DNA of 64,000 nt from positions 6,076,001 to 6,140,000 of the forward strand of contig OZ024747.1 in assembly GCA_964016885.1 (NCBI GenBank), given 5' to 3'. The notes under the pieces are model-generated. The model ran no database searches and had not been told where the DNA came from. It saw nothing but the letters and a program-made list of their open reading frames with translations. Made by a program: the position numbers and the translations under genes. Origin of the DNA: Eledone cirrhosa. Lineage: Eukaryota. Shown here piece by piece: positions 11,391 to 53,560 of this stretch (position 1 is the stretch's first letter; each line of letters starts with the position of its first letter).

Positions 11391-11480
11391 TACTTGGGTT
11401 GTGTGGTTAATTATTACTGTATTGTAATAACTATTATTTTTTGTATTACTGTAAATTAACTCTTATTATTTGTATTTCAG

Positions 11481-11687
11481 CCTGATATCTATGACGGGTC
11501 TGGTCACCGATGGTCCTGCAAATTACTCTGAAAACTGTAAGTGCAGCTGGTTGATCAAACCCAACACAACAGACACCAGCCGTCCAATTCACATACAAAT
11601 GCTACATTTCATCACGGAATGTGGATGGGACCACCTTTATATTTATGATGGCGATTCTGCCTTCTCTACACTCCTTGCAGCCTACAG
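11481..11687 (+). CDS. ATRN: Attractin exon, CUB domain N-part
   Basis: tttcag|CCTG...CTACAG|gtaaa; LISMTGLVTDGPANYSENCKCSWLI...TECGWDHLYIYDGDSAFSTLLAAY. Confidence 0.95.
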
Positions 11688-11862
11688 GTAAACTATCACT
11701 TTACTTAGATACCAGTAATTATCTAGGATATCCTATCCTCTGTTGTCTGGTGTTTCTCAAACCTTTTTTTCCTGTACTCCATTTCGATTCCACTTCAAAA
11801 TGTACACCTGCCATAATCAAAGAAAGTTAGTATATAGCATAGTATATACAGCCCATAGTTAG

Positions 11863-12058: not shown

Positions 12059-12640
12059 GAGGCACATGGCTTAGTGGTTAGAGCATTGGCCTTGCAATCG
12101 AAAGGTTGTGAGTTCAATTCTCAGACCGGGTGATGTGTTGTTTCCTTGAGCAAGACATTTTATTTCACATTGCTCCAGTTTACTCAGCTGTAGAAAGGAG
12201 ATGATAGGACTGGGGTCCATATCATTCCACTGCAAAGTGGTTGTGGAGGTGCCACGGCAAAAAAGCACCCAGCACTCACTGTAAATGAGGTTGGTGTTAG
12301 GAAGTGCATCCAGCTGTAGAAATCAAGCCAGAATCAGTTCCTGTCCCACCCTTGCAAGCAGGGAAAAGTGGACGCAAAATGAAATGATGATGATGATGAT
12401 ATATATGGTAGTGTGTGTATATATGGTAGTGTATATATATATATGGTAGTGTATATATATATATATGGTAGTGTGTATATATATATATATGGTAGTGTGT
12501 ATATATATATATATGGTAGTGTGTATATATATATATATGGTAGTGTGTATATATATATATATGGTAGTGTGTATATATATATATATGGTAGTGTGTATAT
12601 ATATATATGGTAGTGTATATATATATATATATATATGGTA

Positions 12641-12680
<40 letters not shown>

Positions 12681-13188
12681 TAGTGTATATATATATATAT
12701 ATATATATATGGTAGTGTATATATATATATATATATATATGGTAGTGTATATATATATATATATATATATGGTAGTGTATATATATATATATATATATAT
12801 ATATGGTAGTGTATATATATATATATATATATATGGTAGTGTATATATATATATATATATGGTAGTGTATATATATATATATATATATATGGTAGTGTAT
12901 ATATATATATATATATATATGGTAGTGTATATATATATATATATATATGGTAGTGTATATATATATATATATATATGGTAGTGTATATATATATATATAT
13001 ATGGTAGTGTATATATATATATATATGGTAGTGTATATATATATATATATATATATATGGTAGTGTATATATATATATATATATATATATGGTAGTGTAT
13101 ATATATATATATATATATATGGTAGTGTATATATATATATATATATATATATGGTAGTGTATATATATATATATATATATATATGGTA

Positions 13189-13226
<38 letters not shown>

Positions 13227-13486
13227 TAGTGTATATATATATATATATATATATATATGGTAGTATATATATATATATATATATATATATGGTAGTGTAT
13301 ATATATATATATATATATGGTAGTGTATATATATATATATATATATGGTAGTGTATATATATATATATATATATGGTAGTGTATATATATATATATATAT
13401 ATGGTAGTGTATATATATATATATATATGGTAGTGTATATATATATATATATATATATGGTAGTGTATATATATATATATATGGTA

Positions 13487-13522
<36 letters not shown>

Positions 13523-15034
13523 TAGTGTATATATATATATGGTAGTGTATATATATATATATATATATATGGTAGTGTATATATATATATATATATATAT
13601 GGTAGTGTATATATATATATATATATATATATGGTAGTGTATATATATATATATATATATATATATGGTAGTGTATATATATATATATATATGGTAGTGT
13701 ATATATATATATATATATGGTAGTGTATATATATATATATATATGGTAGTGTATATATATATATATATATGGTAGTGTATATATATATATATATATGGTA
13801 GTGTATATATATATATATATATGGTAGTGTATATATATATATATATATGGTAGTGTATATATATATATATATATATGGTAGTGTATATATATATATATAT
13901 ATATATATATGGTAGTGTATATATATATATATATATATGGTAGTGTATATATATATATATATATGGTAGTGTATATATATATATATATATATATGGTAGT
14001 GTGTATATATATATATATATATATGGTAGTGTATATATATATATATATATATATGGTAGTGTATATATATATATATATATATATGGTAGTGTATATATAT
14101 ATATATATATATATGGTAGTGTATATATATATATATATGGTAGTGTATATATATATATATATATATATATATGGTAGTGTATATATATATATATATATAT
14201 GGTAGTGTATATATATATATATATATATATGGTAGTGTATATATATATATATATATATGGTAGTGTATATATATATATATATATATATGGTAGTGTATAT
14301 ATATATATATATATATGGTAGTGTATATATATATATATATGGTAGTGTATATATATATATATATATATATGGTAGTGTATATATATATATATATATATAT
14401 GGTAGTGTATATATATATATATATATATATGGTAGTGTATATATATATATATATATATGGTAGTGTATATATATATATATATATATGGTAGTGTATATAT
14501 ATATATATATATATGGTAGTGTATATATATATATATATATATATGGTAGTGTGTATATATATATATATATATATGGTAGTGTGTATATATATATATATAT
14601 ATATGGTAGTGTGTATATATATATATATATATATGGTAGTGTGTATATATATATATATATATATGGTAGTGTGTATATATATATATATATATATGGTAGT
14701 GTATATATATATATATATATATATGGTAGTGTATATATATATATATATATATATGGTAGTGTATATATATATATATATATATATGGTAGTGTATATATAT
14801 ATATATATATATATGGTAGTGTGTATATATATATATATATATATGGTAGTGTGTATGTATATATATATATATATATGGTAGTGTGTATATATATATATAT
14901 ATATATATGGTAGGGTATATATATATATATATATATATGGTAGGGTATATATATATATATATGGTAGGGTATATATATATATATATGGTAGTGTGTGTAT
15001 ATATATATGGTAGTGTATGTATGTATGTATATAT
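11863..15034. repeat. GGTAGTGT(AT)n compound satellite, left part (interrupted by a SINE at 12058-12400)
   Basis: Directly visible. Confidence 0.97.
12058..12400 (+). mobile_element. tRNA-derived SINE family B (others at 25697-26034, 39795-40110 partial, 56239-56509 truncated)
   Basis: A-box TGGCTTAGTGG, B-box GAGTTCAATTC, CCTTGAGCAAGACA core, (ATG)n tail; near-identical copies. Confidence 0.87.
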
Positions 15035-15253
15035 ATATTTCGTTTCTGAATTTGTTTAGCAAGATTCTTTATCTGAAATCGTGTGTTGAAACCGATATTG
15101 TTATACTTTGGGAGGGTCATGTTGCCAATAAGAAACACACGCACCAGTTGCTTTCACTTCAATTTAATTTAATATATATTTATAAATTTACAAATTTATA
15201 AATTTCTGGTTGGTTGGTTGGTTCCACAACCAGATAGTTGTTTATATATATAT

Positions 15254-15298
15254 AGTCATAGTTCTTTCGTCACACACTCTGTGACCTCTTCAGTGACT
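15254..15298 (-). ncRNA. Hammerhead ribozyme copy in the inverted pseudo-LTR
   Basis: Reverse complement of 16990-17034. Confidence 0.82.
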
Positions 15299-15594
15299 GG
15301 GGATTTCTTTCTTCGTTTCTGTGCCTTTCCTTTCTTCTATCCTACGCCATTTTGTTTGTGTGTGGGTTGCGTGCTCAGTTTGCGCATGCGCCACATCCGG
15401 GTGTCTGTGTGTGTTTGTGTTCATTTTTCTATTTTTCTATTTATATTTGTTTGTTTATTTATTTATTTATTGTTGGTTGGTTGTTTGTTCTATGTGTGTG
15501 TGTGTTTTCATTTTGTCTTGTGTGTGTTTTCATTTTGTGTGTGTTTTCAATTGTAAGTTGTTTATATATGTGTGTGTGTGTTTTCATTTTGTCC

Positions 15595-16298
15595 TTAATT
15601 GTAAGTTGTGATGTTGCTGTTCCACTCATATTTTCTATTTAACTTTGGTTTTAATTCTTTTATGCTTACTGCCTCTGTAATTTGCCTAAACATTGCGTCT
15701 TTCTTGTGTGTGGATTCTATTTTTATTTCTATGCTCTCTAATTTACCCCTGTGTTCTATCTTAGCATGTTGGTAGAGCACAGATGATTCTTTACTATCTT
15801 GGAGGTCTCGCCAGTGTTCATTTATTCGTTCCCCTATACTACGAGCTGTCTCACCTATGTACACTATATTTTTGTTTCTACATTGTCCCTCAGTACATCT
15901 TATGCTATATACTACATTTCTAGTTTTACAGTTAATATGGGGGCTTATTTTACAGGTTATACATTTCTTATCTATACATGAGGGTCTTTGGAACGGGTAT
16001 GTCTTGCTAATAAGTGTTTTTACGGAGGTACCAGGTCTTTCTACTATCTTAATATTGAGATTATGTTTCTTTAGGGCCCTTCTAAATTTGTAGGCTAGTT
16101 CACCTCTAGGGGTTGTATTGATGAACATTACACTCTGGTATTTATTGCTATCATACCATGAGTTTATTCTATTGGCCTTGTTCTTAGTTCTTTCTATTCT
16201 ATTCCAAAATTTGCTCCTATACAAGGGGCAGGTCCCATTTATGTCATTATTTACCATTTTTTCCCATTTGGTTCTGGCTCCTTTATACACTCTGATTC
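15595..16298 (-). pseudogene. Inverted 5'-truncated copy of the PLE ORF end (linker + GIY-YIG)
   Basis: Translation matches the C-terminal ~230 aa of 18262-20958. Confidence 0.92.
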
Positions 16299-16693
16299 AA
16301 AGACCCTCATGTATAGATAAGAAATGTATAACCTGTAAAATAAGCCCCCATATTAACTGTAAAACTAGAAATGTAGTATATAGCATAAGATGTACTGAGG
16401 GACAATGTAGAAACAAAAATATAGTGTACATAGGTGAGACAGCTCGTAGTATAGGGGAACGAATAAATGAACACTGGCGAGACCTCCAAGATAGTAAAGA
16501 ATCATCTGTGCTCTACCAACATGCTAAGATAGAACACAGGGGTAAATTAGAGAGCATAGAAATAAAAATAGAATCCACACACAAGAAAGACGCAATGTTT
16601 AGGCAAATTACAGAGGCAGTAAGCATAAAAGAATTAAAACCAAAGTTAAATAGAAAATATGAGTGGAACAGCAACATCACAACTTACAATTAA
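16298..16693 (+). pseudogene. Direct 5'-truncated copy of the PLE GIY-YIG domain
   Basis: Matches 20563-20958; the hydrophobic N-terminus in the ORF track is antisense read-through of the inverted copy. Confidence 0.92.
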
Positions 16694-16887
16694 GGACAAA
16701 ATGAAAACACACACACACATATATAAACAACTTACAATTGAAAACACACACAAAATGAAAACACACACAAGACAAAATGAAAACACACACACACATAGAA
16801 CAAACAACCAACCAACAATAAATAAATAAATAAACAAACAAATATAAATAGAAAAATAGAAAAATGAACACAAACACACACAGACAC

Positions 16888-16943
16888 CCGGATGTGGCGC
16901 ATGCGCAAACTGAGCACGCAACCCACACACAAACAAAATGGCG
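16888..16943 (+). promoter_or_regulatory. Putative pseudo-LTR promoter: ETS (CCGGATGTG), NRF1 (GCGCATGCGCA) and YY1 (CAAAATGGCG) motifs; copies at 21145-21200 (+) and 15345-15400 (-)
   Basis: Three consensus-like motifs within 56 bp in otherwise CpG-poor DNA, upstream of the ribozyme and the ATG. Confidence 0.55.
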
Positions 16944-16989
16944 TAGGATAGAAGAAAGGAAAGGCACAGAAACGAAGAAAGAAATCCCC

Positions 16990-17034
16990 AGTCACTGAAG
17001 AGGTCACAGAGTGTGTGACGAAAGAACTATGACT
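16990..17034 (+). ncRNA. Minimal type I hammerhead ribozyme in the 5' pseudo-LTR
   Basis: AGUCA-CUGAAGA-G-GUCACA(GAGUG)UGUGAC-GAAA-G(AA)C-UA-UGACU; stems I and II pair perfectly; predicted cleavage after CUA at 17029. Confidence 0.82.
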
Positions 17035-17167
17035 ATATATATATAAACAACTATCTGGTTGTGGAACCAACCAACCAACCAGAAATTTATAAATTTGTAA
17101 ATTTATAAATATATATTAAATTAAATTGAAGTGAAAGCAACTGGTGCGTGTGTTTCTTATTGGCAAC

Positions 17168-18289
17168 ATGACCCTCCCAAAGTATAACAATATCGGTTTC
17201 AACACACGATTTCAGATAAAGAATCTTGCTAAACAAATTCAGAAACGAAATATCGTAAGCCTTAGCCAGGCTAACAAGATACTGAAAACCACCATGTTCT
17301 GTTGTCTACGAAAAACCATAACATCTCGACAACTACACTTCATAAAACTGTGCACCACTTCTAGAATCTACACCAACACCATCAATACCGACGTTAGAAG
17401 ATTACAACTCACCAAAAAACAAGCAGATAGGCTAAAACGAACTTTAATTCTAAACATAAAAAAGAAGATCTATAGAGAATTAAGTCATCAAGAAAAACTA
17501 AAGCGTAACCTAATAGATGAAATATCTAAAATCACCACACCAGCAGAAAAACTAACATTTATAAGCCTTATACGCCCCGAAGAACAGTACATTACTCAAG
17601 AATGTAATAAGCACTTTAACAGAAAATTAAAGTGGCTTAAACAGGCAAAGCTAAATCGGGATACTATAGAGTATACCAATAGATATCCCGACAAAATTGA
17701 CGGTATCAACATGGCCGACACCTCATTATCTGAAGAGTTCAACAATAAAAATACCAACATTTATGGAAACACGAAAATAGATAATAATGAAATGTCTGTG
17801 TTACGTTTGCCACCCAAATTTGCGACATTCAAGAAGGTAAATATGATTAGTTGTCTGTCAGAAATAGAAAAATCATTTACGAAACTACGCTGGAGCATCA
17901 AAAACAAAAACAAAAGCAACAATATACGCACACACATATACAACACACATCCCAACAACAACAGACACACAGACACAAACAACAATAACAACAACAATAG
18001 CAACATACCCAGATACAATACCAACAATAGCAACATACCCAGATACAACAGACACGCAGACACAAACAACAATAACAACACACACGGAGACAACAATAAC
18101 AACAACACACACATCAACAACAACAACAACAGCAACATACCCAGATACAACAACAACAGACAAGCAAACACAAACAACAATAACAACACACACAACAACG
18201 ATAACACACACACACACGGAGACAACAACACACATCAACAACAACAACACACACACATTCAATGCCTCTCACCACCACTACAATCTTAA
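17168..18289 (+). CDS. Penelope-like element ORF, N-terminal part (basic domain + Asn/Thr/His-rich tract)
   Basis: ATG at 17168 (MTLPKYNN); PLE-like N-terminal motifs LRLPPKF and EIEKSFTKLRW; overlaps the RT ORF in another frame. Confidence 0.8.
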   Translation: MTLPKYNNIGFNTRFQIKNLAKQIQKRNIVSLSQANKILKTTMFCCLRKTITSRQLHFIKLCTTSRIYTNTINTDVRRLQLTKKQADRLKRTLILNIKKKIYRELSHQEKLKRNLIDEISKITTPAEKLTFISLIRPEEQYITQECNKHFNRKLKWLKQAKLNRDTIEYTNRYPDKIDGINMADTSLSEEFNNKNTNIYGNTKIDNNEMSVLRLPPKFATFKKVNMISCLSEIEKSFTKLRWSIKNKNKSNNIRTHIYNTHPNNNRHTDTNNNNNNNSNIPRYNTNNSNIPRYNRHADTNNNNNTHGDNNNNNTHINNNNNSNIPRYNNNRQANTNNNNNTHNNDNTHTHGDNNTHQQQQHTHIQCLSPPLQS

Positions 18290-20958
18290 CAAACACACAG
18301 ACACAGAAAACAAGTAATGACAGTAGCACAGAAATCAGAGAAATAAGAGAAAGTAATAGGATTAAAAGGAGTAGGGAGACTAAGGACAAAGAGAATAACC
18401 AAGACGAACACACAGACACACAAAATAGGGTAGATAACAACATTGAGCCAGTGGAAAGAGACAGGAGTAATTATGAGAGACATAGAAACAACCATGAAGC
18501 TGAGGCTGCTGCTGTTGGTGGAAATAGAAACAACACAACTAACAATAGCGCAAGTACACATAAAGCAGCAGCCTGGAACTCTCCGTTTTATAATCCCTCC
18601 GATAAATCATTCGACCTACGACGAGTCCACGCCACGACTTTGCCATTTAACAAACGCACGCAGTTGCCGTCGCAGGTCGATGAACAAACAGAAGCACAAT
18701 TTAGTATAGCTAAATCCGAACTTAGAAATATTATAGAACAGTATAGCAAGAAGCATAATAGAAGAGAGGCCCAGCAACTGGGAGAAGAATCTGCAAATGG
18801 CTTGCGTAAGCTCATGCAGCGCTCGCGTAATGGAGAGATAGCATGCTTTCCAACAGACAAGTCTGGCAGAATGTCGGTTGACAGCCTGCCAAACTACATC
18901 CAGGCAATGCAACCCCACATCACTAACACAAGAGAGGTAACACCACAGGAGCATGAGGACAGAGAAAAAACCCTCAATGCCCATATGGTGATGTGGACAA
19001 ATATAATGCAGCCCAACAAAAGGACTGCCAACAACTTCCAGGCCTGGAACAATGACGTGCCGGCATTGTATGGGCTTCGAAAGGACCATAAAACGGGCTG
19101 GGACCCTGTCGCGGGACCACCAACACGGCCAGTCTGTGGGGCTAACATTGCTAGTAACTACAGACTGTCCTACTTCCTCTCCCTGATCATACGCCCCATC
19201 ATTGAGATGTCCCCAGATGTGTGTGACAGCACGGAGGACCTCCTCAGCAGAATCGACGCGGGTAACCGATCTGGGGACCTAACAAACTGCATAATAGGCA
19301 GTATGGATGTTGTGTCCCTGTATCCATCTATTGACGTGGATTTTGCTGTGGAGAAATGCGTCGAAATGATCAGCGAGAGCAAGGTTGAGTTCCGTGGGAT
19401 TGATACCAGTGAGCTGGGACTTCTACTTAAGCTTACCCATAGTAATAGTTACCTAGACACTTATGACCTTAGCAACCTGTGCCCTACAAGACCAGCAAGA
19501 GGCAGACCACCTACCATTACCTCAATGGCCAAGAAAACCCACACAGATAGATGGAACGGGTGGACCAGAGCCATACGGACACCCGAAAACCACGATGAAC
19601 TGAAGAAAATGATTGCACATGCGGTAGGGGCCAGCATAAAATTAACCCTTAAGGAACATATGTTCAAATTTAATAGTAAAACATATGCCCAAGAGGAAGG
19701 AGCAGCCATTGGTGTTAGCATTGCAGGCGACATAGCTAACTTGTTCATGGTATGGTGGGACAGTAGACTTAAACAAAAACTTAAAGAACAATTAGAAGAC
19801 AGATTAACCCTGATAATGTACTCCCGCTACGTAGATGATATAAACATCGTAGTTAAGACACCCCCACTAAAGAACAGTCAGGAACCTGAGAAAAACACAA
19901 TGGAAAGCATCCAGCAAATAGCAAACTCCATCCACCAGAGCATTAGAGTTACTATAGACTACCCAAGTAGACACCCCAACCATCGATTACCTGTACTAGA
20001 CACAGAGCTCTGGTTAGATACTATTAACAACCAAAAACAAATCCTCCATTCCCATTATGCCAAACCCATGACTTCCAAACATCTGATCCACCGAAACTCG
20101 GCCATTTCGGACCATACCAAAATCAACATACTGATTGCGGATTTGGTACGGGTGATGAGAAATGTGTCCCGCATGTGCAACCCCAAAGAACTAGAGAGAC
20201 ACATACAACACTTCATCCACCGTATGCAGTTCTCTGGCTACAATCAGAGAGATAGAATCAGAGTGTATAAAGGAGCCAGAACCAAATGGGAAAAAATGGT
20301 AAATAATGACATAAATGGGACCTGCCCCTTGTATAGGAGCAAATTTTGGAATAGAATAGAAAGAACTAAGAACAAGGCCAATAGAATAAACTCATGGTAT
20401 GATAGCAATAAATACCAGAGTGTAATGTTCATCAATACAACCCCTAGAGGTGAACTAGCCTACAAATTTAGAAGGGCCCTAAAGAAACATAATCTCAATA
20501 TTAAGATAGTAGAAAGACCTGGTACCTCCGTAAAAACACTTATTAGCAAGACATACCCGTTCCAAAGACCCTCATGTATAGATAAGAAATGTATAACCTG
20601 TAAAATAAGCCCCCATATTAACTGTAAAACTAGAAATGTAGTATATAGCATAAGATGTACTGAGGGACAATGTAGAAACAAAAATATAGTGTACATAGGT
20701 GAGACAGCTCGTAGTATAGGGGAACGAATAAATGAACACTGGCGAGACCTCCAAGATAGTAAAGAATCATCTGTGCTCTACCAACATGCTAAGATAGAAC
20801 ACAGGGGTAAATTAGAGAGCATAGAAATAAAAATAGAATCCACACACAAGAAAGACGCAATGTTTAGGCAAATTACAGAGGCAGTAAGCATAAAAGAATT
20901 AAAACCAAAGTTAAATAGAAAATATGAGTGGAACAGCAACATCACAACTTACAATTAA
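18262..20958 (+). CDS. Penelope-like reverse transcriptase + C-terminal GIY-YIG endonuclease
   Basis: Motifs PTDKSG, LYGLRKDHK, TRPV, SMDVVSLYPSI, QEEGAAIG, RYVDD, LPVLD, HYAKP; Cys linker CIDKKCITC; NVVY...YIGET.RS..ER..EH; RQITEAVSI....LNRKYEW. Confidence 0.95.
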   Translation: MPLTTTTILTNTQTQKTSNDSSTEIREIRESNRIKRSRETKDKENNQDEHTDTQNRVDNNIEPVERDRSNYERHRNNHEAEAAAVGGNRNNTTNNSASTHKAAAWNSPFYNPSDKSFDLRRVHATTLPFNKRTQLPSQVDEQTEAQFSIAKSELRNIIEQYSKKHNRREAQQLGEESANGLRKLMQRSRNGEIACFPTDKSGRMSVDSLPNYIQAMQPHITNTREVTPQEHEDREKTLNAHMVMWTNIMQPNKRTANNFQAWNNDVPALYGLRKDHKTGWDPVAGPPTRPVCGANIASNYRLSYFLSLIIRPIIEMSPDVCDSTEDLLSRIDAGNRSGDLTNCIIGSMDVVSLYPSIDVDFAVEKCVEMISESKVEFRGIDTSELGLLLKLTHSNSYLDTYDLSNLCPTRPARGRPPTITSMAKKTHTDRWNGWTRAIRTPENHDELKKMIAHAVGASIKLTLKEHMFKFNSKTYAQEEGAAIGVSIAGDIANLFMVWWDSRLKQKLKEQLEDRLTLIMYSRYVDDINIVVKTPPLKNSQEPEKNTMESIQQIANSIHQSIRVTIDYPSRHPNHRLPVLDTELWLDTINNQKQILHSHYAKPMTSKHLIHRNSAISDHTKINILIADLVRVMRNVSRMCNPKELERHIQHFIHRMQFSGYNQRDRIRVYKGARTKWEKMVNNDINGTCPLYRSKFWNRIERTKNKANRINSWYDSNKYQSVMFINTTPRGELAYKFRRALKKHNLNIKIVERPGTSVKTLISKTYPFQRPSCIDKKCITCKISPHINCKTRNVVYSIRCTEGQCRNKNIVYIGETARSIGERINEHWRDLQDSKESSVLYQHAKIEHRGKLESIEIKIESTHKKDAMFRQITEAVSIKELKPKLNRKYEWNSNITTYN

Positions 20959-21246
20959 GGACAAAATGAAAACACACACACACATATATAAACAACTTAC
21001 AATTGAAAACACACACAAAATGAAAACACACACAAGACAAAATGAAAACACACACACACATAGAACAAACAACCAACCAACAATAAATAAATAAATAAAC
21101 AAACAAATATAAATAGAAAAATGAACACAAACACACACAGACACCCGGATGTGGCGCATGCGCAAACTGAGCACGCAACCCACACACAAACAAAATGGCG
21201 TAGGATAGAAGAAAGGAAAGGCACAGAAACGAAGAAAGAAATCCCC

Positions 21247-21291
21247 AGTCACTGAAGAGGTCACAGAGTGTGTGACGAAAGAACTATGACT
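21247..21291 (+). ncRNA. Hammerhead ribozyme copy in the 3' pseudo-LTR
   Basis: Identical to 16990-17034. Confidence 0.82.
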
Positions 21292-21450
21292 ATATATATA
21301 TAAACAACTATCTGGTTGTGGAACCAACCAACCAACCAGAAATTTATAAATTTGTAAATTTATAAATATATATTAAATTAAATTGAAGTGAAAGCAACTG
21401 GTGCGTGTGTTTCTTATTGGCAACATGACCCTCCCAAAGTATAACAATAT

Positions 21451-21487
21451 ATATATATATATATATATATATGGTAGTGTATGTATG

Positions 21488-21538
<51 letters not shown>

Positions 21539-21551
21539 TAGTGTATGTATG

Positions 21552-21602
<51 letters not shown>

Positions 21603-21615
21603 TAGTGTATGTATG

Positions 21616-21650
<35 letters not shown>

Positions 21651-21693
21651 TAGTGTATGTATATATATATATATATATGGTAGTGTATGTATG

Positions 21694-21746
<53 letters not shown>

Positions 21747-21860
21747 TAGTGTATGTATATATATATATATATATATATATGGTAGTGTATGTATATATAT
21801 ATATATGGTAGTGTATGTATATATATATATATGGTAGTGTATGTATATATATATATATAT
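21451..21860. repeat. GGTAGTGT(ATGT)x(AT)n satellite, right part
   Basis: Same motif and orientation as the left array; the ATGT-containing variant occurs on both sides of the PLE. Confidence 0.97.
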
Positions 21861-22795
21861 TATCAATATAGTAAAGCAGTGAATTGACAGCATTGGATAA
21901 AATACTTTACAGTATTTGTTCAAACTTCGAGTTCAAATCCTGCTGAGGTCAACTTTGCTTTTCATCCTTCTTAGTCGATAAAATAAAGTACCTGTAATAC
22001 ACTGGGTCGATTTAATTGACTTTCTCCTTTCCTAAAATTGTTGGCCTTGTGCCTAATTCAGAAAGCATTATTATTGTTATATTTGGGGGGGGGGGGTTAT
22101 GTTGTCCTAATATTGCCAAAAATAGTAAAACGCACTCAGTTTGGTTTGGTTTTCACTTCAGTATATTTTTATTATTAATTTAGCCGGAAATCAATGTTTA
22201 TTATTGATTGACCAACAGTTAAAATATAAATATAATTTCTCAAATTTCTTTTGTCACACCAAACAGTGAGTGTGTTTTACTATTTCTGGCAATATTATAA
22301 CAATGGCAGTATTGGTAGAGGGTCAGACATGCTTTCCAACGTAGTTACATCCCTTTACGATCTGAGTTCAAATCCCGCCGAGGTTAACTTTGCCTTTCAT
22401 CCTTACAGGGTCGATAAAATAAAGTACCAGTAATGTACTGGGTAATTGCTGGCCTTGTGCCAAAACTAGAAACAATTATAACAATATGACCCTCCCCAAA
22501 TATAACAATATCTGTTTCAACACACAATTTCATATCAAAAACCTTGTAAAACATTATTATTTTATTCTGGCGGTGGATTGGCAGTATCGGTAGAGCGTCA
22601 GACGCCAAGCTTTTCAGCAAAGAGTTACGGCCCTTTATGGTCTGAGTAAAATCCCGCCGAGGTTAACTTTGCCTTTCATCCTTACGGGGTCGATAAAATA
22701 AAGTACCAGTAATACACTGGGATAATTGCTGGCCTTGTGCCAAAAGTATAAACTGTTGTTGTAGTTGTTATAGATTTGTTGGTGTCTTATTTCAG

Positions 22796-22934: not shown

Positions 22935-23990
22935 TGATGATGATGGTGATGGTGGTGGTGGTGGTGGTGGTGGTGGTGATATGATGTTGATGGTAGTGGT
23001 GATGGTGGTGGTGATATGTTGATGGTAGTGGTGATGGTGGTGGTGGTGGTGGTATGATGTTGATGGTAGTGGTGATATGTTGATGGTAGTGGTGATGATG
23101 GTGGTGATATGATGTTGATGGTAGTGGTGATGGTGGTGGTGATATGTTGATGGTAATGGTGATGATGGTGGTGGTGATGATGTTGATGGTAGTGGTGATG
23201 GTGGTGGTGATATGTTGATGGTAGTGGTGATGATGGTGGTGATATGATGTTGATGGTAGTGGTGATGGTGGTGGTGATGTTGATGGTGGTGGTGATGGTG
23301 GTGGTGGTATGATGTTGATGGTAGTGGTGATGGTGGTGGTGATATGTTGATGGTAGTGGTGATGGTGGTGGTGGTATGATGTTGATGGTAGTGGTGATGG
23401 TGGTGGTGATATGATGTTGATGGTAATGGTGATGATGGTGGTGGTGATGATGTTGATGGTGGTGGTAGTGATATGATGTTGATGGTAATGGTGATGATGG
23501 TGATATGATGTTGATGGTAATGTTGATGGTGGTAGTGGTGATATGATGTTGGTGGTAATGGTGATGGTAATCTTGATGATGATGGTGGTGATGATATGAT
23601 GGTGATGGTAATGGTGATGGTAATGTTGATGATAGTGGTGATGATGATATGATGATTAAGTTTATATATATATAATAGAATATATATATATATATATATA
23701 ATAGAAAATATATATATATATATAATAGAAAATATATATATATATATATATATAATAGAAAATATATATATATATATATATAATAGAAAATATATATATA
23801 TATATATATAATAGAAAATATATATATATATATATATAATAGAAAATATATATATATATATATATAATAGAAAATATATATATATATATATAATAGAAAA
23901 TATATATATATATATATATAATAGAAAATATATATATATATATAATAGAAAATATATATATATATATATAATAGAAAATATATATATATA
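22935..23990. repeat. (GAT/GGT)n microsatellite followed by an AATAGAAA(AT)n repeat, filling almost the whole intron
   Basis: Directly visible. Confidence 0.95.
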
Positions 23991-24024
23991 AAGTTTATGT
24001 ATTTATATGTATATCTGTTTTCAG

Positions 24025-24197
24025 AGTTGGAGGTTGTCCATTAAAGTGTTCAGGCCGTGGTGTTTGTGAAAATTATGTGTGTCAGTGCCAGAAAGGTTAT
24101 ATAGGTGATGGCTGTGAGATTGACCTTTGTCCAAACAATTGCTCCAACCATGGAAATTGCTGGAACAATCAGTGTGAATGTGATATTGGATATATCG
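24025..24197 (+). CDS. ATRN: Attractin exon, EGF-like repeats
   Basis: tttcag|AGTT...ATCG|gtaag; GCPLKCSGRGVCENYVCQCQKGYIGDGCEIDLCPNNCSNHGNC. Confidence 0.93.
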
Positions 24198-24600
24198 GTA
24201 AGGAAATATTATATTTACTCTATTTCTACTTTTTCTCCCCCAACATTCTTCAGGTTTTTTCTTGTTCTTCTTACTTTATTTGTATTTTTCGATATTTTGT
24301 GTGTCTTTTGTATTCTATCACTTTCTTGTTGTTGTTGTTGTTGTCTCCTGTTGTTGTGTATTCTGTCCTGTTATTGTATAGTCTTCTGTAGTTGTTGTTG
24401 TTAACCCTTTCATGACTGCATTTCTATGGATTTACTAAAATTATTAATTATTTCATTACTATAGAGTAACTTAATGTAATGTTCTTATATAAAATTATAT
24501 TAGAAAATTTAAATTTAAATTGGAAACCTTTAAAATAGGTGGTTTTGATACATAGAACCAGAGCCGGTTTTGGCTGGGTAGGTAACTAAAGGATTAAAAT

Positions 24601-26375: not shown

Positions 26376-26614
26376 GTAAATTACACCTTGCAACATATAC
26401 CTTTTATGATTATATAGGTGTCAGTGTGCACACATATATATATATATATATAGATATATATGTGGAGAAACAGATATAAATATATATACACACACAACAC
26501 ACCCAACACACAATGCACACACACAATGCACACACACAACATACACACACAACACCTAATGTACACATTGATCTGTTATTCCTGTAATAACTGTTATTGT
26601 TGTTGTTGTTCCAG

Positions 26615-26843
26615 AACCAGCTGTACATGTATGGAGGTGTAGTTGGTAACAACATCTCCAATGAATTTTGGATGTTTGACCTCGGTCAAAAGGTTTGGAC
26701 CCTTTTGAAGAATTCCTCCTGGGAGCAGTACCAGTTGGCTGTGTCTGGTCACACGGCCCATGTTGTTGATGGGGTCATGCATGTCTTTTTTGGTCACAGC
26801 CCGATCTATGGATACCTACATTGTATTCAAGAATTTTATTTTG
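26615..26843 (+). CDS. ATRN: Attractin exon, kelch
   Basis: ttccag|AACC...TTTG|gtcagt; NQLYMYGG...AVSGHTAH...FFGHSPIYGYLHCIQEF. Confidence 0.92.
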
Positions 26844-27743
26844 GTCAGTCTCACATCTTTTTTGGTTTTCGTCTCGCTTCTTTCATCTCACTTCTTTCAT
26901 CTCATTTCTTTCATCTCACCAGTTTCATCTCACCTGTTGTTGCTGTTTGTAAATTTATATCTCTTAGGTTCTGTTGATTTAACTACTAACATCCTGTAGT
27001 GATTTAGCAGAAAATATCTACAAGATCATCGGGTCTGTTAATTCAAATGTTTATAGTGTCTTTACTAGTAGACAAATCATTGTGAAAATTTGCAGTATTA
27101 GAATAAAAATTAAATTTTTTAATATGATACAGTCATAATGCTGTTTTGTACTTTTCGAAAATATCTTGCTAATATAATTTGATGTGCTACATGACATTAA
27201 GTTAAGACTCTTGGATCTCAAATAATCCCCCCCCCCCCCATCCACACTTATTAAATTTTCAGGTTCTCCCCACCCCTGTTCTTATTCCATTCCCATCTCG
27301 CTTATTAAATTTTGCTAATCTATCTCTGGTAAAATTTTGTTTTAAGTGGTATCATTCCAGTAACAATTAATTTTTTACATTAAAAATCATACATGACAAA
27401 AAAAAGTACATTACAAAAATCCCATATGTTATAAAATAAATAGGATGGGTTGGGGTCTCAATATGTAAACTAAACAACTAATTCTGGTTTAAAAAAAAAA
27501 AAAACAAGGGGGACAACCTAGAAAAATTGCCAATTTTCCAAAGACCCTGCTTATTCCACCCCTGCCCCCCCCCCGTTTATTCCAACCTCCCTATTATTTG
27601 GGTCTCGAGTGTGTGTGTATGTATGTATATATATATATATACACACACGACCCACACACCCAGTGTATGAGGGTTAGAAATCATGTATGTGCTGTGGTGT
27701 GGTGTGTATTCATATTATTTACATAATTGTCTGTACTTTCCAG

Positions 27744-27927
27744 GTAACAAAAGCTGGTTTATACCAGAAACGTCGGGAGCAATTGTAAAAAATACCTGTT
27801 GGCACTCCAGTGTCTATGATAAGATTCGGCAGTTAATCTATGTCTATGGTGGATACCATTCTGTCAGTTCAGCAACTAATCACATCACCGATAAATTATA
27901 TTCATACAATCCAAAAACTCGATATTG
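27744..27927 (+). CDS. ATRN: Attractin exon, kelch
   Basis: ttccag|GTAAC...TATTG|gtgtgt; SW...TSGAIV...HSSVYD...IYVYGGY...DKLYSYN. Confidence 0.92.
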
Positions 27928-28156
27928 GTGTGTATATCTCTTTATTTATTGTTTTTTTATTTTTTTTATTTATTTGTGTTCTAGCCGAGGGGCTGAGGTC
28001 ATGCTGGGGCACTGTCTACATTTATATGCGTTCATACTTAAACAGCCAAAAACTTTTCTCAGGGTTTTAGGTATTTATGTAGATACAGACGCTCTCTTTC
28101 TCTCTCTCTCTCTCTCATTTGTGTGTGTGTGTGTACACACACTGTCATGTGTTTCC

Positions 28157-28189
<33 letters not shown>

Positions 28190-28310
28190 ACATACACACA
28201 CAAATGTGCAATATTAAATCTGCTAGAATTATGTGCTTCTCAATAAACAAACTCAATAGACTTTATCTAGAGCAAATCAAATGTAGATTATATATATATA
28301 TCTATATACA

Positions 28311-28438
<128 letters not shown>

Positions 28439-28700
28439 AGAGCCATATATACAGAGAAGGCACAGTATTTTGTACATATACTAAATACATATTACAGAAA
28501 ATATGTTCTAGATAGAAACTGTGTCTTCTCTGGACATATGGTCCTCCCTCTCTTTCCATATATATATATCTTCTATATTTGACTTACATACAGACACAAA
28601 TATAAGTGATCATTTTGGTGCCACAGCAAAAAGCACTCTGTCCACACTGGTTGGTGTTAGGAAGGGCATCCATATTTTGATTGTTGTTTTGTTTCTGTAG

Positions 28701-28858
28701 GCAAGTATTACGGAGTAGTGACTCACCTCGCTTCCTTCATTCTGCAATTCTGACATCCGATGGATTCATGCTGACATTTGGTGGCAATACCCACAATGAG
28801 GCTTCCGTGAACTCTGCTGCCAAGTGTTACTCCTTAGATTTTATGGCATATGATGTTG
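28701..28858 (+). CDS. ATRN: Attractin exon, kelch
   Basis: tgtag|GCAA...GTTG|gtaag; RFLHSAIL..MLTFGGNTHNEASVNSAAKCYSLDFMAYDV. Confidence 0.94.
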
Positions 28859-29086
28859 GTAAGTACTCCTTTCTACTGTCTCTGTTGGTCTTTGTCAGTC
28901 TCTTTGTTTGTCTTTCTATCTGTCTTACAAATTTAAACCTAAACCCAGTCATTCAAGCAATGAAAGATATTTGTTATGATAGGGGAAAGAAACCTTCTTC
29001 TTCTTAAGACCCAGGAAAAGTATTATGACTGTTATAACAGGAGCAAGAAGCCTTCTTCTTCTTCGTAAGACCCAGGAAATGTTTAA

Positions 29087-29305
29087 CCCTTTAGCATTTA
29101 TATTACTCTATTTTTACAATTGTATTTTTGCAGTAAAGGCTTTATCTTACATAATTATCTCATAAAATCGAATCTATAAGATTTTGATATTATTTATTTT
29201 GAGAACAATAGCTTAACGTCAGTATGAGTGGCCAGTTACAACTGGTTTCAAGAGAAAAAGGTGAGAGAATTCTGGCCGGATATGGCCGGTTTAAATGCTA
29301 AAGGG
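29087..29305. mobile_element. piggyBac-type MITE (other copies at 41989-42264 and 43938-44140)
   Basis: TTAA|CCCTTTAGCATTTA...TAAATGCTAAAGGG|TTAA: 14-bp TIR and TTAA TSD; three copies. Confidence 0.85.
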
Positions 29306-29385
29306 TTAATGAATGTTTTAATAAGACAAACAAAAAAGAGATTCTCTCAGTCTGAGAACTATCCCAATGTGTTTTGCTCTTGTAG

Positions 29386-29470
29386 AATGTGATCATTGGT
29401 ATTGTTTACAGAAACCACATCTACAGAAAGATGTGTCACGGTTTGGTCATGCTGCGATTTCACACAACAA
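29386..29470 (+). CDS. ATRN: Attractin exon, kelch
   Basis: tgtag|AATGT...CAACAA|gtaag; ECDHWYCLQKPHLQKDVSRFGHAAISHN. Confidence 0.92.
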
Positions 29471-29575
29471 GTAAGATATTTGCTTTCTTACCTTGGTTTT
29501 CTTATGTCTTTTTCTTACTTTTTATTGCTTTGAATAATTGTTTGCTATAAAATTATCCTGCTACATCTTTCTCTC

Positions 29576-30171: not shown

Positions 30172-30847
30172 GTAAGTTAACCTCTTGTCCTGATCCTCCT
30201 CTTCTGTGTTGATTAGTCGGTGGGAGCACTGTTTTTTACCCACGATGAATCTGGCAGACCCACCTCTCCACCTAGTCATCTTGAATACAACAAACATCAA
30301 CTTCTTTACGTTCAAGCATCTCTACAACCTCATTTGAGCGACCTTTCAATGTGTGTATGTTCATGGTACCAACTCTGAAGTTGGGATGGATGGGTTGGAG
30401 GGGCAGGGAGGGACGTGGGAGATGGAATTATGTTGGTCATCCGTGTCTGAAATAAAGAGGGGTCCTTGTATTCTCATCCTGCGGCGGGAGGTGAATTTAT
30501 CTTTATCTGTGACATTGTCATTGAGTGTTTAGACTTTCAAATTCCGCAGTCCACCCATCAAACAGGTCTAAACTTAAGGAGTAGTAACCGAGGTGGTAAC
30601 TTTGCTATACTGATTTGTAAGAGTTACTATAAGCCACTCAATTATTATTGGACCATATAGCAATGGTGGGGTGGGAAATGAGTAACTTTAGGAGAAGGAG
30701 CAAAAGTCGGTTTTTATAACCTGTCCCTACCCCCACGTCACCCTAAAGACCTTGTGTACAACAAAGATAATAGTAGATGACCGTGTCTTGTTCATACAAG
30801 ACTATTTCTGGTTTTGTTTCTATGGTTGAATACCCTTCCTAACACCA

Positions 30848-33301
30848 ACCACTTTACAGTGTGGACTGTGGGAATTTTATTGTGGCTCCAACAAGACCAC
30901 TTTACAGTGTGGACTGGGAGCATTTTATTGTGGCTCCAACAAGACCACTTTACAGTGTGGACTGGGAGCATTTTATTGTGGCTCCAACAAAACCACTTTA
31001 CAGTGTGGACTGGGAGCATTTTATTGTGGCTCCAACAAGACCACTTTACAGTGTGGACTGGGAGCATTTTATTGTGGCTCCAACAAGACCACTTTACAGT
31101 GTGGACTGGGAGCATTTTATTGTGGCTCCAACAAAACCACTTTACAGTGTGGACTGGGAGCATTTTATTGTGGCTCCAACAAAACCACTTTACAGTGTGG
31201 ACTGGGAGCATTTTATTGTGGCTCCAACAAGACCACTTTACAGTGTGGACTGGGAGCATTTTATGGTGGCTCCAACAAGACCACTTTACAGTGTGGACTG
31301 GGAGCATTTTATTGTGGCTCCAACAAGACCACTTTACAGTGTGGACTGGGAGCATTTTATTGTGGCTCCAACAAGACCACTTTACAGTGTGGACTGGGAG
31401 CATTTTATGGTGGCTCCAACAAGACCACTTTACAGTGTGGACTGGGAGCATTTTATGGTGGCTCCAACAAGACCACTTTACAGTGTGGACTGGGAGCATT
31501 TTATTGTGGCTCCAACAAGACCACTTTACAGTGTGGACTGGGAGCATTTTATTGTGGCTCCAACAAGACCACTTTACAGTGTGGACTGGGAGCATTTTAT
31601 TGTGGCTCCAACAAGACCACTTTACAGTGTGGACTGGGAGCATTTTATGGTGGCTCCAACAAGACCACTTTACAGTGTGGACTGGGAGCATTTTATTGTG
31701 GCTCCAACAAGACCACTTTACAGTGTGGACTGGGAGCATTTTATGGTGGCTCCAACAAGACCACTTTACAGTGTGGACTGGGAGCATTTTATTGTGGCTC
31801 CAACAAGACCACTTTACAGTGTGGACTGGGAGCATTTTATTGTGGCTCCAACAAGACCACTTTACAGTGTGGACTGGGAGCATTTTATTGTGGCTCCAAC
31901 AAGACCACTTTACAGTGTGGACTGGGAGCATTTTATGGTGGCTCCAACAAGACCACTTTACAGTGTGGACTGGGAGCATTTTATTGTGGCTCCAACAAGA
32001 CCACTTTACAGTGTGGACTGGGAGCATTTTATTGTGGCTCCAACAAGACCACTTTACAGTGTGGACTGGGAGCATTTTATTGTGGCTCCAACAAAACCAC
32101 TTTACAGTGTGGACTGGGAGCATTTTATTGTGGCTCCAACAAGACCACTTTACAGTGTGGACTGGGAGCATTTTATTGTGGCTCCAACAAGACCACTTTA
32201 CAGTGTGGACTGGGAGCATTTTATTGTGGCTCCAACAAGACCACTTTACAGTGTGGACTGGGAGCATTTTATGGTGGCTCCAACAAGACCACTTTACAGT
32301 GTGGACTGGGAGCATTTTATGGTGGCTCCAACAAGACCACTTTACAGTGTGGACTGGGAGCATTTTATTGTGGCTCCAACAAGACCACTTTACAGTGTGG
32401 ACTGGGAGCATTTTATGGTGGCTCCAACAAGACCACTTTACAGTGTGGACTGGGAGCATTTTATGGTGGCTCCAACAAGACCACTTTACAGTGTGGACTG
32501 GGAGCATTTTATTGTGGCTCCAACAAGACCACTTTACAGTGTGGACTGGGAGCATTTTATTGTGGCTCCAACAAGACCACTTTACAGTGTGGACTGGGAG
32601 CATTTTATGGTGGCTCCAACAAGACCACTTTACAGTGTGGACTGGGAGCATTTTATTGTGGCTCCAACAAGACCACTTTACAGTGTGGACTGGGTGCTTT
32701 TCGTTGTGGCTCCAACAAGACCACTTTACAGTGTGGACTGGGTGCTTTTCGTTGTGGCTCCAACAAGACCACTTTACAGTGTGGACTGGGAGCATTTTAT
32801 TGTGGCTCCAACAAGACCACTTTACAGTGTGGACTGGGAGCATTTTATGGTGGCTCCAACAAGACCACTTTACAGTGTGGACTGGGAGCATTTTATTGTG
32901 GCTCCAACAAGGCCACTTTACAGTGTGGACTGGGAGCATTTTATGGTGGCTCCAACAAGACCACTTTACAGTGTGGACTGGGTGCTTTTCGTTGTGGCTC
33001 CAACAAGACCACTTTACAGTGTGGACTGGGAGCATTTTATTGTGGCTCCAACAAGACCACTTTACAGTGTGGACTGGGAGCATTTTATGGTGGCTCCAAC
33101 AAGACCACTTTACAGTGTGGACTGGGAGCATTTTATTGTGGCTCCAACAAGACCACTTTACAGTGTGGACTGGGAGCATTTTATGGTGGCTCCAACAAGA
33201 CCACTTTACAGTGTGGACTGGGAGCATTTTATGGTGGCTCCAACAAGACCACTTTACAGTGTGGACTGGGAGCATTTTATTGTGGCTCCAACAAGACCAC
33301 T
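30848..33301. repeat. 48-bp minisatellite, about 51 copies
   Basis: Unit CCACTTTACAGTGTGGACTGGGAGCATTTTATTGTGGCTCCAACAAGA. Confidence 0.97.
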
Positions 33302-33409
33302 ATGATAAAAAAGATAAATGGACCTCCATTGGTTTCAATAACACAATGTTCCTGCTGTCTAATCATTGGCACAATATATTTGTTAAATAAGCAAACACAT
33401 TGTGTTCCA

Positions 33410-47620: not shown

Positions 47621-47695
47621 TATGCCAGTGTAATGGCCACAGCATCTGTAATGAGACCACCAACATCTGTATTGAATGTCAGAACAATACCACAG
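47621..47695 (+). CDS. ATRN: Attractin exon, laminin-EGF
   Basis: ctccag|TATG...ACAG|gtaaa; CQCNGHSICNETTNICIECQNNTT. Confidence 0.93.
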
Positions 47696-53365: not shown

Positions 53366-53560
53366 GGCGGTGGATTGGCAGTATTGGTAGAGGGTCGGAC
53401 GCCATGCTTTGACGCACAGAGTTACGGCCCTTGCCATTCTGAGTTCAAATCCCGCCGAGGTTAACTTTGCCTTTCATCCTTACGGGGTCGATAAAATGAA
53501 GTACCAGTAATACACTGGGTAATTGCTGGCCTTGTGCCAAAAGTAGAAACAATTATTATT
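53366..53560 (+). mobile_element. tRNA-derived SINE family A (representative copy; others near 1-140, 308-490, 21925-22075, 22305-22480, 22568-22752, 53566-54160, and 60731-60947 on -)
   Basis: A-box-like TGGCAGTATTGG, B-box GAGTTCAAATCC, body GCCTTTCATCCTTACGGGGTCGATAAAAT, (ATT)n tail; many copies. Confidence 0.85.

What the first reader, a model, noticed from the sequence alone, without database searches (positions are those of the whole stretch)
16990..17034. Variant minimal hammerhead ribozyme in three copies, two of them sense to the host pre-mRNA
Seen: the core CUGAAGA...GAAA...UA with a 5-bp stem I and 6-bp stem II. Unusual points are an extra G between the core and stem II, a CUA triplet, and a 2-bp stem III with an AA loop (AGAACU is only quasi-palindromic). 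Established: PLE pseudo-LTRs carry minimal type I hammerheads that can work as dimers. Inference: the copies at 16990 and 21247 could dimerise in one transcript, release a unit of about 4.26 kb, and also cut the attractin intron.
Basis: partly seen in the sequence, partly recalled or inferred. Interest (0 to 1): 0.75.

Follow-up and report, generated by a model that had tools for sequence, protein, structure and literature searches.

The report
Penelope retroelement minimal hammerhead, ordinary
This is the small hammerhead ribozyme motif that Penelope-like jumping genes carry in their terminal repeats, here in a very young full-length copy inside an intron of an attractin-like gene; it would cut the element's own RNA, probably only as a pair or with protein help, and it is an already described kind of sequence.

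Summary
An exact 35-base core lies at 15259-15293 (-), 16995-17029 (+) and 21252-21286 (+), and the full 45-base motif has every hammerhead core base. It sits in the pseudo-LTR of a Penelope-like element (PLE) with RT and GIY-YIG domains, a 4257-base unit, an inverted 5'-truncated copy upstream and (TA)n flanks. The element lies in a CUB-domain intron of a plus-strand attractin-like gene.

The "unusual" points are published hallmarks of PLE minimal hammerheads: an extra base after A9, a long stem II, a short stem I and a tiny stem III. Only the non-palindromic AA loop 3 departs from the norm.

The 3.0-Gb genome holds 16,852 near-identical copies. A second, unrelated PLE family holds 6,553 copies with two compensatory stem II changes. 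Across PLE relatives from metagenomes the stems covary strongly. Within the family, recurrent changes fall only in loops, at H17 and at the last stem I pair.

Cleavage, dimerisation of the two plus copies, release of a 4.26-kb unit and cutting of the host intron remain untested. The dimer helix III is weak, and a 956-base perfect inverted repeat would sequester the upstream copy in host pre-mRNA. No RNA data could be had.

This scan met the same kind of motif before in other genomes. Verdict: real, a new member of a known kind, low interest.

The parts
16990..17034 (+). Minimal type-I hammerhead, copy in the upstream pseudo-LTR; predicted cut 17029|17030
   Evidence: Sequence; exact core match; covariance model R1 39.3 bits, E 1.3e-6
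21247..21291 (+). Identical hammerhead copy in the downstream pseudo-LTR; predicted cut 21286|21287
15254..15298 (-). Identical hammerhead copy in the inverted 5'-truncated copy; predicted cut 15259|15258 on the minus strand
15035..16298 (-). Inverted 5'-truncated PLE copy (end of ORF2, 3' UTR, hammerhead, long-form tail). Bases 15035-15990 are 100% complementary to 16298-17253
   Evidence: I1, I2; arms identical over 956 nt
16298..17253 (+). Upstream pseudo-LTR (partial tandem copy). 16298-17193 equals 20563-21450 except for one 8-base gap
17168..18289 (+). ORF1 (373 aa) with a low-complexity C-terminal part and no Pfam family. In many other copies it is in one frame with ORF2
18262..20958 (+). 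ORF2 (898 aa): reverse transcriptase, CX4CxxC linker, C-terminal GIY-YIG endonuclease
   Evidence: RVT_1 E 2.7e-4, below its cut-off; GIY-YIG 22.8 bits against a cut-off of 22.6; 166 homologues, those with names called reverse transcriptase domain proteins
20563..21450 (+). Downstream pseudo-LTR, ending ...ACAATAT followed by (TA)n (short-form 3' end)
12360..15034 (.). (TA)n/GGTAGTG microsatellite array flanking the insertion on the left
21451..21870 (.). The same kind of (TA)n microsatellite on the right: the likely target of the insertion
11455..11688 (+). Host exon region encoding CUB profile positions 15-75; the PLE lies in the intron that follows
   Evidence: PF00431, E 6e-7

Best explanation
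The 45-base motif at 16990-17034 and its two exact copies are the minimal type-I hammerhead of a Penelope-like retroelement's pseudo-LTR, predicted to cut the element's own RNA after A17029 when two copies pair or the element's protein assists. Shown: the motif has all core bases. It lies on the sense strand about 290 bases after the RT/GIY-YIG ORF and 164 or 224 bases before the element's two fixed 3' ends. Its stems covary among related PLEs, and within the family only loops, H17 and the outermost stem I pair vary recurrently. Inferred: a monomer cannot close stem III, so activity would need the double-hammerhead form (helices I and III made between two copies) or protein help, as reported for other PLEs. 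Cleavage would trim read-through or multimeric PLE transcripts to unit length, possibly followed by circularisation (the published model). The insertion itself is a standard PLE product: a partial tandem plus an inverted truncated copy, placed in a (TA)n microsatellite within a host intron.
For: Motif and copies. PLE anatomy: inverted and direct repeats, ORFs, GIY-YIG, RT homologues, (TA)n flanks. Family size: 16,852 matches with up to 2 mismatches in the genome, 0 in the reversed-pattern control. At least one copy ends at window-equivalent 17193 or 17250-17253 in 28 of 30 sampled loci. A second PLE family with no DNA similarity carries the same design, with C-G to U-A and A-U to G-C changes in stem II; it has 6,553 copies. 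In 80 metagenomic PLE relatives (259,650 nt) a descriptor found 10 hammerheads on the sense strand and 0 on the other; shuffles gave mean 0.07, maximum 2. On the covariance-model alignment of 35 hits, 81.2% of cells pair against 25-41% when partners are slid. The covariation score is 0.561 against 0.156 shuffled (0 of 500 reach it), and 10 of 11 pairs change on both sides. H17 is U 12, A 11, C 2, G 0; C3-G8 switches to U3-A8 in six rows. Within the family, sites varying in at least 10% of contig depth in three organisms are 17011 (loop 2), 17025/17026 (loop 3), 17029 (A to U, H17) and 17034 (end of stem I), plus a rare 17027, while 7 sites vary in the 67 bases upstream. The same pattern holds in 35 sampled copies. 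Literature: PMC4209133 (text read), PMC8557442 and PMC11167929 (passages read).
Against: No Rfam hammerhead model matches, even at E up to 10 on a 91-base stretch. The fold energy is not better than shuffles. There is no covariation inside this family, where the stems are simply invariant. The alignment used for pair counts was fitted to the model. Loop 3 (AA) is not palindromic, unlike almost all relatives. The computed double-hammerhead (-19.2 kcal/mol) is no better than two separate monomers (-21.4). Of 5 sampled copies truncated near the motif, none starts at 17030, so there is no genomic trace of cleaved templates. Published PLE min-HHRs cleave poorly in vitro. For the Anolis element, cleavage needed protein, was dispensable for insertion in vitro, and left no RNA-seq ends (PMC11167929).
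Confidence: 0.8

Rival explanations
1. The conserved hammerhead-shaped RNA serves mainly as a structured recognition or assembly site for the element's RT/endonuclease near the place where reverse transcription starts. Cutting would be marginal or irrelevant.
For: The motif lies 164-224 bases from the fixed 3' ends. Helix III is weak and non-palindromic in this very successful family. In the Anolis PLE, ribozyme mutants did not change insertion in vitro and no RNA-seq ends lay at the cut site (PMC11167929, passages). Craig et al. call the function unclear and note hammerhead-free PLE clades that proliferate well (PMC8557442, passages).
Against: All catalytic core bases are kept across distant PLEs. 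H17 is never G, and C3-G8 covaries to U3-A8. These constraints are specific to catalysis rather than to a hairpin binding site. Fungal PLE hammerheads cleave well (PMC4209133).
Confidence: 0.2
2. One reading: the copies at 16990 and 21247 pair within the attractin pre-mRNA, cut the intron and release a 4.26-kb unit, with an effect on the host gene.
For: Both copies are sense to the host gene and identical. Double-hammerhead pairing is geometrically possible.
Against: In a plus-strand read-through RNA the 16298-17253 arm is perfectly complementary to 15035-15990. The duplex energy is -121 kcal/mol for the 66 bases around the motif, against -10.9 for the ribozyme fold. The same arm is also 96% complementary to 21066-21450. 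The dimer helix III has two A.A mismatches. The two sites are 4.26 kb apart. Introns are removed anyway, so a cut need not change the mRNA. No RNA data.
Confidence: 0.08
3. Chance resemblance: a repeat that merely happens to contain CUGANGA...GAAA.
For: No Rfam hit; fold energy not significant.
Against: Strand-specific recurrence downstream of the ORF in unrelated PLE families, with covarying stems.
Confidence: 0.01

Closest known systems
Minimal hammerheads (min-HHR) in the pseudo-LTRs of metazoan Penelope-like elements (Cervera and De la Pena 2014, PMC4209133)
   Same: Type I topology. One unpaired base between A9 and 10.1, G10.1-C11.1, stem II of 6 bp, stem I of 4-5 bp, and a 15.2-16.2 pair with a 2-nt loop. 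Located in both pLTRs, with inverted pairs 100-700 bp apart and thousands of mostly truncated copies per genome.
   Different: Loop 3 is AA (GA or AG in sister subfamilies), not palindromic, so the dimer helix III would hold tandem purine mismatches. The family is unusually uniform and young, like the D. virilis case in that paper.
Hammerhead of the Anolis Poseidon element PAc (PMC11167929)
   Same: A PLE hammerhead near the start of the ORF region within the pLTR; two discrete reverse-transcription start or 3'-end sites; a tail signature.
   Different: In PAc the ORF starts inside the ribozyme and the two start sites are adjacent. Here the ORF1 ATG is 138 bases after the cut and the two 3' ends are 60 bases apart. 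Protein-assisted cleavage was shown there, while nothing has been assayed here.
Canonical dimeric type-I hammerheads of animal retrozymes and satellite transcripts (newt, Schistosoma Sm-alpha; PMC7229834 from its search listing and abstract only, otherwise recalled)
   Same: Short helix III that needs a second copy; a proposed role in processing tandem transcripts and making circles.
   Different: Those have helix I/II loops with tertiary contacts, a 4-bp stem II, and sit in small non-coding tandem units. Here the unit is a 4.26-kb coding element, and Rfam models do not see the motif.
Hammerheads with an extra base after A9 (De la Pena and Flores 2001, as cited in PMC4209133; not read)
   Same: One unpaired nucleotide between A9 and G10.1.
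   Different: That report concerns a canonical, non-minimal hammerhead.

Membership tests
Hammerhead ribozyme | Catalytic core C3 U4 G5 A6 N7 G8 A9 / G12 A13 A14 / A15.1-U16.1 / H17 not G | tested here: met
   All present at 16995-17001, 17020-17023, 17028 and 17029; the same in all 3 copies
Hammerhead ribozyme | Helices I and II supported by covariation in relatives | tested here: met
   covariation 0.561 against 0.156 shuffled (0 of 500) and 0.066-0.117 slid; helix II 91.6% and helix I 70.8% of cells paired. Caveat: the alignment was fitted to the model
Hammerhead ribozyme | Match to curated Rfam hammerhead models | tested here: not met
   No hit at gathering score or at E up to 10. The literature says min-HHRs were found with special descriptors (PMC4209133)
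Hammerhead ribozyme | Self-cleavage at H17 | not testable with these tools
   No RNA run on record. Contigs cannot show RNA ends
PLE min-HHR | Unpaired base between 9 and 10.1 with a G10.1-C11.1 pair | tested here: met
   G17002; G17003-C17019. 9 of 10 descriptor hits in relatives have the extra base. G-C in 22 of 25 rows
PLE min-HHR | Palindromic 15.2-16.2 and loop 3 (dimer helix III) | tested here: inconclusive
   G15.2-C16.2 present, but loop AA gives AGAACU, which is not a palindrome. Relatives have AUAUAU, AUCGAU, ACUAGU, ACGCGU and similar. Computed dimer -19.2 against -26 to -31 kcal/mol for palindromic versions
PLE min-HHR | Sense strand of the pLTR of a PLE, near the 3' end | tested here: met
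Penelope-like element (EN+) | Reverse transcriptase domain | tested here: met
   RVT_1 E 2.7e-4, below Pfam's cut-off. 166 homologues at E up to 1e-3, the named ones annotated as reverse transcriptase domain proteins
Penelope-like element (EN+) | C-terminal GIY-YIG endonuclease | tested here: met
   PF01541, 22.8 bits against a cut-off of 22.6
Penelope-like element (EN+) | Partial tandem (pLTR) plus an inverted 5'-truncated copy; (TA)n target | tested here: met
   described as typical in PMC8557442
Neptune/Nematis clades of PLEs | CX2-5CxxC motif in the RT-EN linker; placement on an RT tree | tested here: inconclusive
   C-IDKK-C-IT-C is seen in the ORF2 translation. No tree was built
Retrozyme (non-autonomous circRNA element) | Small non-coding unit between hammerheads, circular RNA | tested here: not met
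   The unit is 4257 bases and encodes RT/EN. Circular RNA was not testable

The most novel reading that the evidence does not exclude
The most abundant and apparently active PLE family of this octopus-like genome has given up the palindromic helix III that lets PLE hammerheads dimerise. Its subfamilies carry AA, GA or AG there, always purine-purine. The ribozyme would then work through a non-canonical tandem-purine dimer helix or only with the element's protein. With more than 16,000 copies, many in introns, it would be a conditional, protein-gated RNA cutter spread through host genes.
Probability: 0.12. Interest if true: 0.5.

Novelty: new member of a known kind. Interest (0 to 1): 0.2.

Why it matters
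It adds a very large, young family of Penelope-like elements with minimal hammerheads in a cephalopod-like genome (16,852 copies, plus 6,553 of a second family). At least 49 of 51 scored copies have uninterrupted RT-endonuclease frames. That makes it a convenient natural system for the open question of what PLE hammerheads do, and whether a palindromic helix III is needed. For the host gene it is most likely just an intronic insertion. The long perfect inverted repeat (956 bp) is more likely to matter for the pre-mRNA, as double-stranded RNA, than the ribozyme is.

Tried and rejected
1. Rfam gave no hammerhead hit, on the whole window at gathering score, on 16000-22500 at E up to 10 or on 16970-17060. 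Only AT-rich microRNA-like chance hits appeared.
2. RNA evidence: the look-up of sequencing runs listed 6 runs, with no RNA holder listed.
I laid 16640-17080 instead. All runs were contigs, so no starts, ends or strand could be read. No places where many molecules begin or end were listed.
4. Genomic trace of cleavage: I looked for copies whose 5' end is at 17030. Among 40 tail-anchored copies chosen because they lacked an exact core, 35 had a whole motif. Five were truncated, at about 16995, 17006, 17009, 17017 and at or after 17035, none at 17030. One of the first 30 loci (L009) starts at 17032. There is no enrichment.
5. Contigs that diverge into A-rich sequence exactly upstream of 16990 (91 in run X1) suggested a separate element sharing only the hammerhead and tail. 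The genome search gave 15 matches, and the four CUGAGGA loci I printed in full carry an older diverged subfamily of the same pLTR (CUGAGGA core, loop AG, H17 U). Rejected.
6. A PLE-tail-like 72-base stretch at 22482-22553 beside tRNA-derived SINE copies suggested a SINE that borrows the PLE tail. Only 1 of 9 SINE copies in the window is followed by it, so it is more likely an old truncated PLE stub. Rejected.
7. Thermodynamic significance of the monomer fold: z -1.12, not significant.
8. The search of earlier findings by place returned nothing for this genome.

Full report
OBSERVATION

The stretch 16990-17034 reads AGUCA-CUGAAGA-G-GUCACA-GAGUG-UGUGAC-GAAA-G-AA-C-U-A-UGACU. This is a complete type-I hammerhead core (C3-A9, G12-A14, A15.1, U16.1, H17 = A). 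It has a 5-bp stem I, a 6-bp stem II, one unpaired G between A9 and stem II, and a 15.2-16.2 G-C pair around a 2-nt loop. The predicted cut is between 17029 and 17030.

The 35-base core is present exactly three times: 15259-15293 (minus), 16995-17029 (plus) and 21252-21286 (plus). None is expected by chance.

The minimum-energy fold of the 45-mer forms stems I and II (-10.9 kcal/mol). That is not better than shuffled sequence (z -1.12). A 2-bp stem III with a 2-nt loop cannot form as a hairpin. No Rfam family matches, even with permissive settings.

WHAT CARRIES IT

The three copies belong to one composite insertion, 15035-21450.

- Bases 16298-21450 are 1.2 units of a 4257-base element (direct repeats 16298-17193 and 20563-21450). 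The two repeats are identical except for one 8-base gap.
- Bases 15035-16298 are an inverted, 5'-truncated copy. Its first 956 bases are 100% complementary to 16298-17253.
- The unit encodes ORF1 (17168-18289, no known family) and ORF2 (18262-20958). [quoted passage not shown]
- ORF2 has 166 homologues. The best named one is an Octopus vulgaris protein at 70% identity, and the rest are mostly short environmental contigs.
- Both ends of the insertion abut (TA)n-rich microsatellite.

This matches the published anatomy of endonuclease-bearing Penelope-like elements: pseudo-LTRs from partial tandems, an adjacent inverted truncated copy, a tail, (TA)n targets and a hammerhead in the pLTR (PMC8557442, passages read).

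The host gene runs on the plus strand. Exons encode CUB (11455-11688), EGF (23975-24388), attractin/LZTR1 propeller (26591-29471), PSI, and laminin/attractin EGF (47521-47709). The element therefore lies in an intron within the CUB domain, and the two plus copies are sense to the pre-mRNA.

THE FAMILY IN THE GENOME

The 3.0-Gb assembly holds 16,852 matches to the 35-mer with up to 2 mismatches, against 0 for the reversed control. A 35-mer just downstream gives 16,610 matches.

In 30 sampled loci the copies are 5'-truncated at varied points. Several loci are head-to-head pairs. In 28 of 30 loci at least one copy ends at window-equivalent 17193 (= 21450) or 17250-17253. The motif therefore sits 164 or 224 bases from two fixed 3' ends, both at an AAUAU followed by (TA)n.

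With ORF2 as query, 51 copies were scored at 99-100% amino-acid identity, 49 without a stop. Sixteen have an open frame of 1278-1279 aa, the commonest value. The window copy has 917, so here the frame is broken between ORF1 and ORF2. The family is young and probably active.

Tandem runs of three hammerheads at a spacing of 4423 bases occur elsewhere (C1:63066979, 63071402 and 63075825).

IS IT A CONSTRAINED HAMMERHEAD?

Within the family the stems do not vary, so they cannot covary. The pattern of variation is still telling. Contigs of four runs from three organisms were laid on 16640-17080.

- Within the motif, the sites that differ in at least 10% of depth are 17011 (loop 2), 17025 and 17026 (loop 3), 17029 (A to U, still an allowed H17) and 17034 (the outermost stem I pair, with no listed change in its partner). 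A rare change also occurs at 17027.
- Seven sites vary in the 67 bases upstream.
- Of 40 further copies, chosen because they lacked an exact core, 35 hold a whole motif. The recurrent changes are at 17025 (21 copies), 17011 (11), 17034 (11), 17029 (9) and 17009 (4).
- Changes in the core or in stem II occur in only one or two of those copies each.

- A distant homologue (P0100) picked out a second PLE family in the same genome with no DNA similarity to the first.
- Its pLTRs carry CUGACGA-U-GUUGCA-GAUG-UGCAAC-GAAA-G-AU-U-U-A. The design is the same, with two compensatory double changes in stem II and only 2 contiguous stem I pairs. It has 6,553 copies.
- In 80 loci around PLE relatives from metagenomes (259,650 bases), a descriptor found 10 hammerheads on the coding strand. 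Seven of them lie downstream of an ORF match that reaches the C-terminus. It found none on the other strand, and shuffles gave mean 0.07, maximum 2.
- Nine of those 10 have the extra base after A9.
- A covariance model built from 14 of these sequences found 35 matches at E up to 1 in 83 sources. In the window it found only the three copies. It also found new sites in further relatives, some as inverted copies upstream of the ORF.
- On that alignment 81.2% of cells pair, against 25-41% with slid partners. The covariation score is 0.561 against 0.156 shuffled (0 of 500 reach it) and 0.066-0.117 slid. Ten of 11 pairs change on both sides, and G10.1-C11.1 is G-C in 22 of 25 rows. The alignment is fitted to the model, which favours pairing.
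- H17 is never G (U 12, A 11, C 2). C3-G8 switches to U3-A8 in six rows.

COMPARISON WITH WHAT IS KNOWN

Cervera and De la Pena (PMC4209133, text read) describe PLE min-HHRs with these features:

- helix II of 6-8 bp;
- helix I of 4-5 bp;
- a conserved G10.1-C11.1 pair;
- palindromic 15.2-16.2 and loop 3;
- occurrence in both pLTRs, and pairs on opposite strands 100-700 bp apart.

The helix III element AGAACU is not a palindrome, whereas relatives have AUAUAU, AUCGAU, ACUAGU, ACGCGU, ACCGGU and the like. Sister subfamilies have AGGACU and AGAGCU. The second family has AGAUUU.

The double-hammerhead form has helices I and III made between two copies. Computed for this motif it is -19.2 kcal/mol, against -21.4 for two separate monomers. 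The values are -23.3 and -22.0 for the GA and AG loops, and -26 to -31 for palindromic loops. Dimerisation is therefore predicted to be weak.

HOW IT LIKELY WORKS

Shown: the identity, placement and evolutionary constraint of the motif.

Inferred: it cuts PLE RNA after H17 in a two-copy or protein-assisted form. This would trim read-through or multimeric transcripts, and in the published model it allows circles that template more-than-unit cDNA (PMC4209133).

Published caveats apply.

- Metazoan min-HHRs cleave poorly in vitro (PMC4209133).
- The Anolis element's hammerhead needed its protein, was dispensable for insertion in vitro, and left no RNA-seq ends (PMC11167929, passages read).
- Hammerhead-free PLE clades proliferate well, and the function is called unclear (PMC8557442).

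A reading as a protein-recognition structure is therefore a live rival. The catalysis-specific constraints (H17, C3-G8) argue for cutting.

In plus-strand read-through RNA the upstream plus copy is part of a perfect 956-bp inverted repeat. The 66 bases around the motif pair with their image at -121 kcal/mol, against -10.9 for the ribozyme fold. The same inverted arm is 96% complementary to the downstream pLTR. Together with the weak helix III and the 4.26-kb spacing, this makes cutting of the intron by these two copies unlikely. It remains untested. No RNA run was on record, and contigs cannot show ends.

VERDICT

This is a real hammerhead motif of the known PLE kind, in a new, very large and young family. 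The scan has reported the same kind in at least five other genomes, with follow-up notes that read it as ordinary (unchecked notes, not evidence). Interest is low. The non-palindromic helix III is the one feature worth a bench test.

Noticed in passing
15035-15990 and 16298-17253: A 956-base, 100% perfect inverted repeat separated by 307 bases lies within an intron of a plus-strand gene. In the pre-mRNA it would form a long double-stranded RNA hairpin, a possible substrate for editing or dicing.
   Followed up: partly
L031-L060 (G000, other contigs): A second Penelope-like family of about 4.13 kb. It has a single ORF of about 1217 aa in many copies and its own minimal hammerhead (CUGACGA-U-GUUGCA...). 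There are 6,553 copies with up to 2 mismatches, including tandem runs of four hammerheads about 4146 bases apart.
   Followed up: partly
17193 and 17253 (equivalents 21450 and 15035): Copies of the family end at one of two fixed points 60 bases apart. Each is at an AATAT followed by (TA)n microsatellite, which suggests that reverse transcription starts where a TA-rich target can anneal.
   Followed up: partly
17895-18230: A low-complexity, repeat-rich stretch (runs of N, T and H codons) joins ORF1 and ORF2. The window copy has its frame broken here, while 16 of 51 other scored copies read through as one 1278-1279 aa frame.
   Followed up: partly
22290-22760, also 92-438, 53495-53860 and others: Many copies of a tRNA-derived SINE (A and B box-like head, conserved body ...TTAACTTTGCCTTTCATCC...). 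Between two tandem copies, at 22482-22553, lies a 72-base stretch 85% identical to the PLE tail, most likely an old truncated PLE stub.
   Followed up: yes
L057 minus strand, about 553 bases from the start of the reverse complement: One canonical-looking type-I hammerhead (CUGAUGA-A-GGAC-UAGC-GUCC-GAAAC...) unrelated to either PLE family. It might belong to a retrozyme-like repeat.
   Followed up: no
30843-33302 (+): An 820-aa open frame in another intron of the host gene with only a doubtful Pfam match (BCS1_N, with no stretch passing on its own). Probably another mobile element or low-complexity frame.
   Followed up: no
56483-58500 (-): Long minus-strand open frames (167, 117, 365 and 87 aa) with reverse-transcriptase-like and endonuclease-like sequence by eye (such as ...GVHQGSVL...). 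This looks like a LINE-type element downstream of the attractin-like exons.
   Followed up: no
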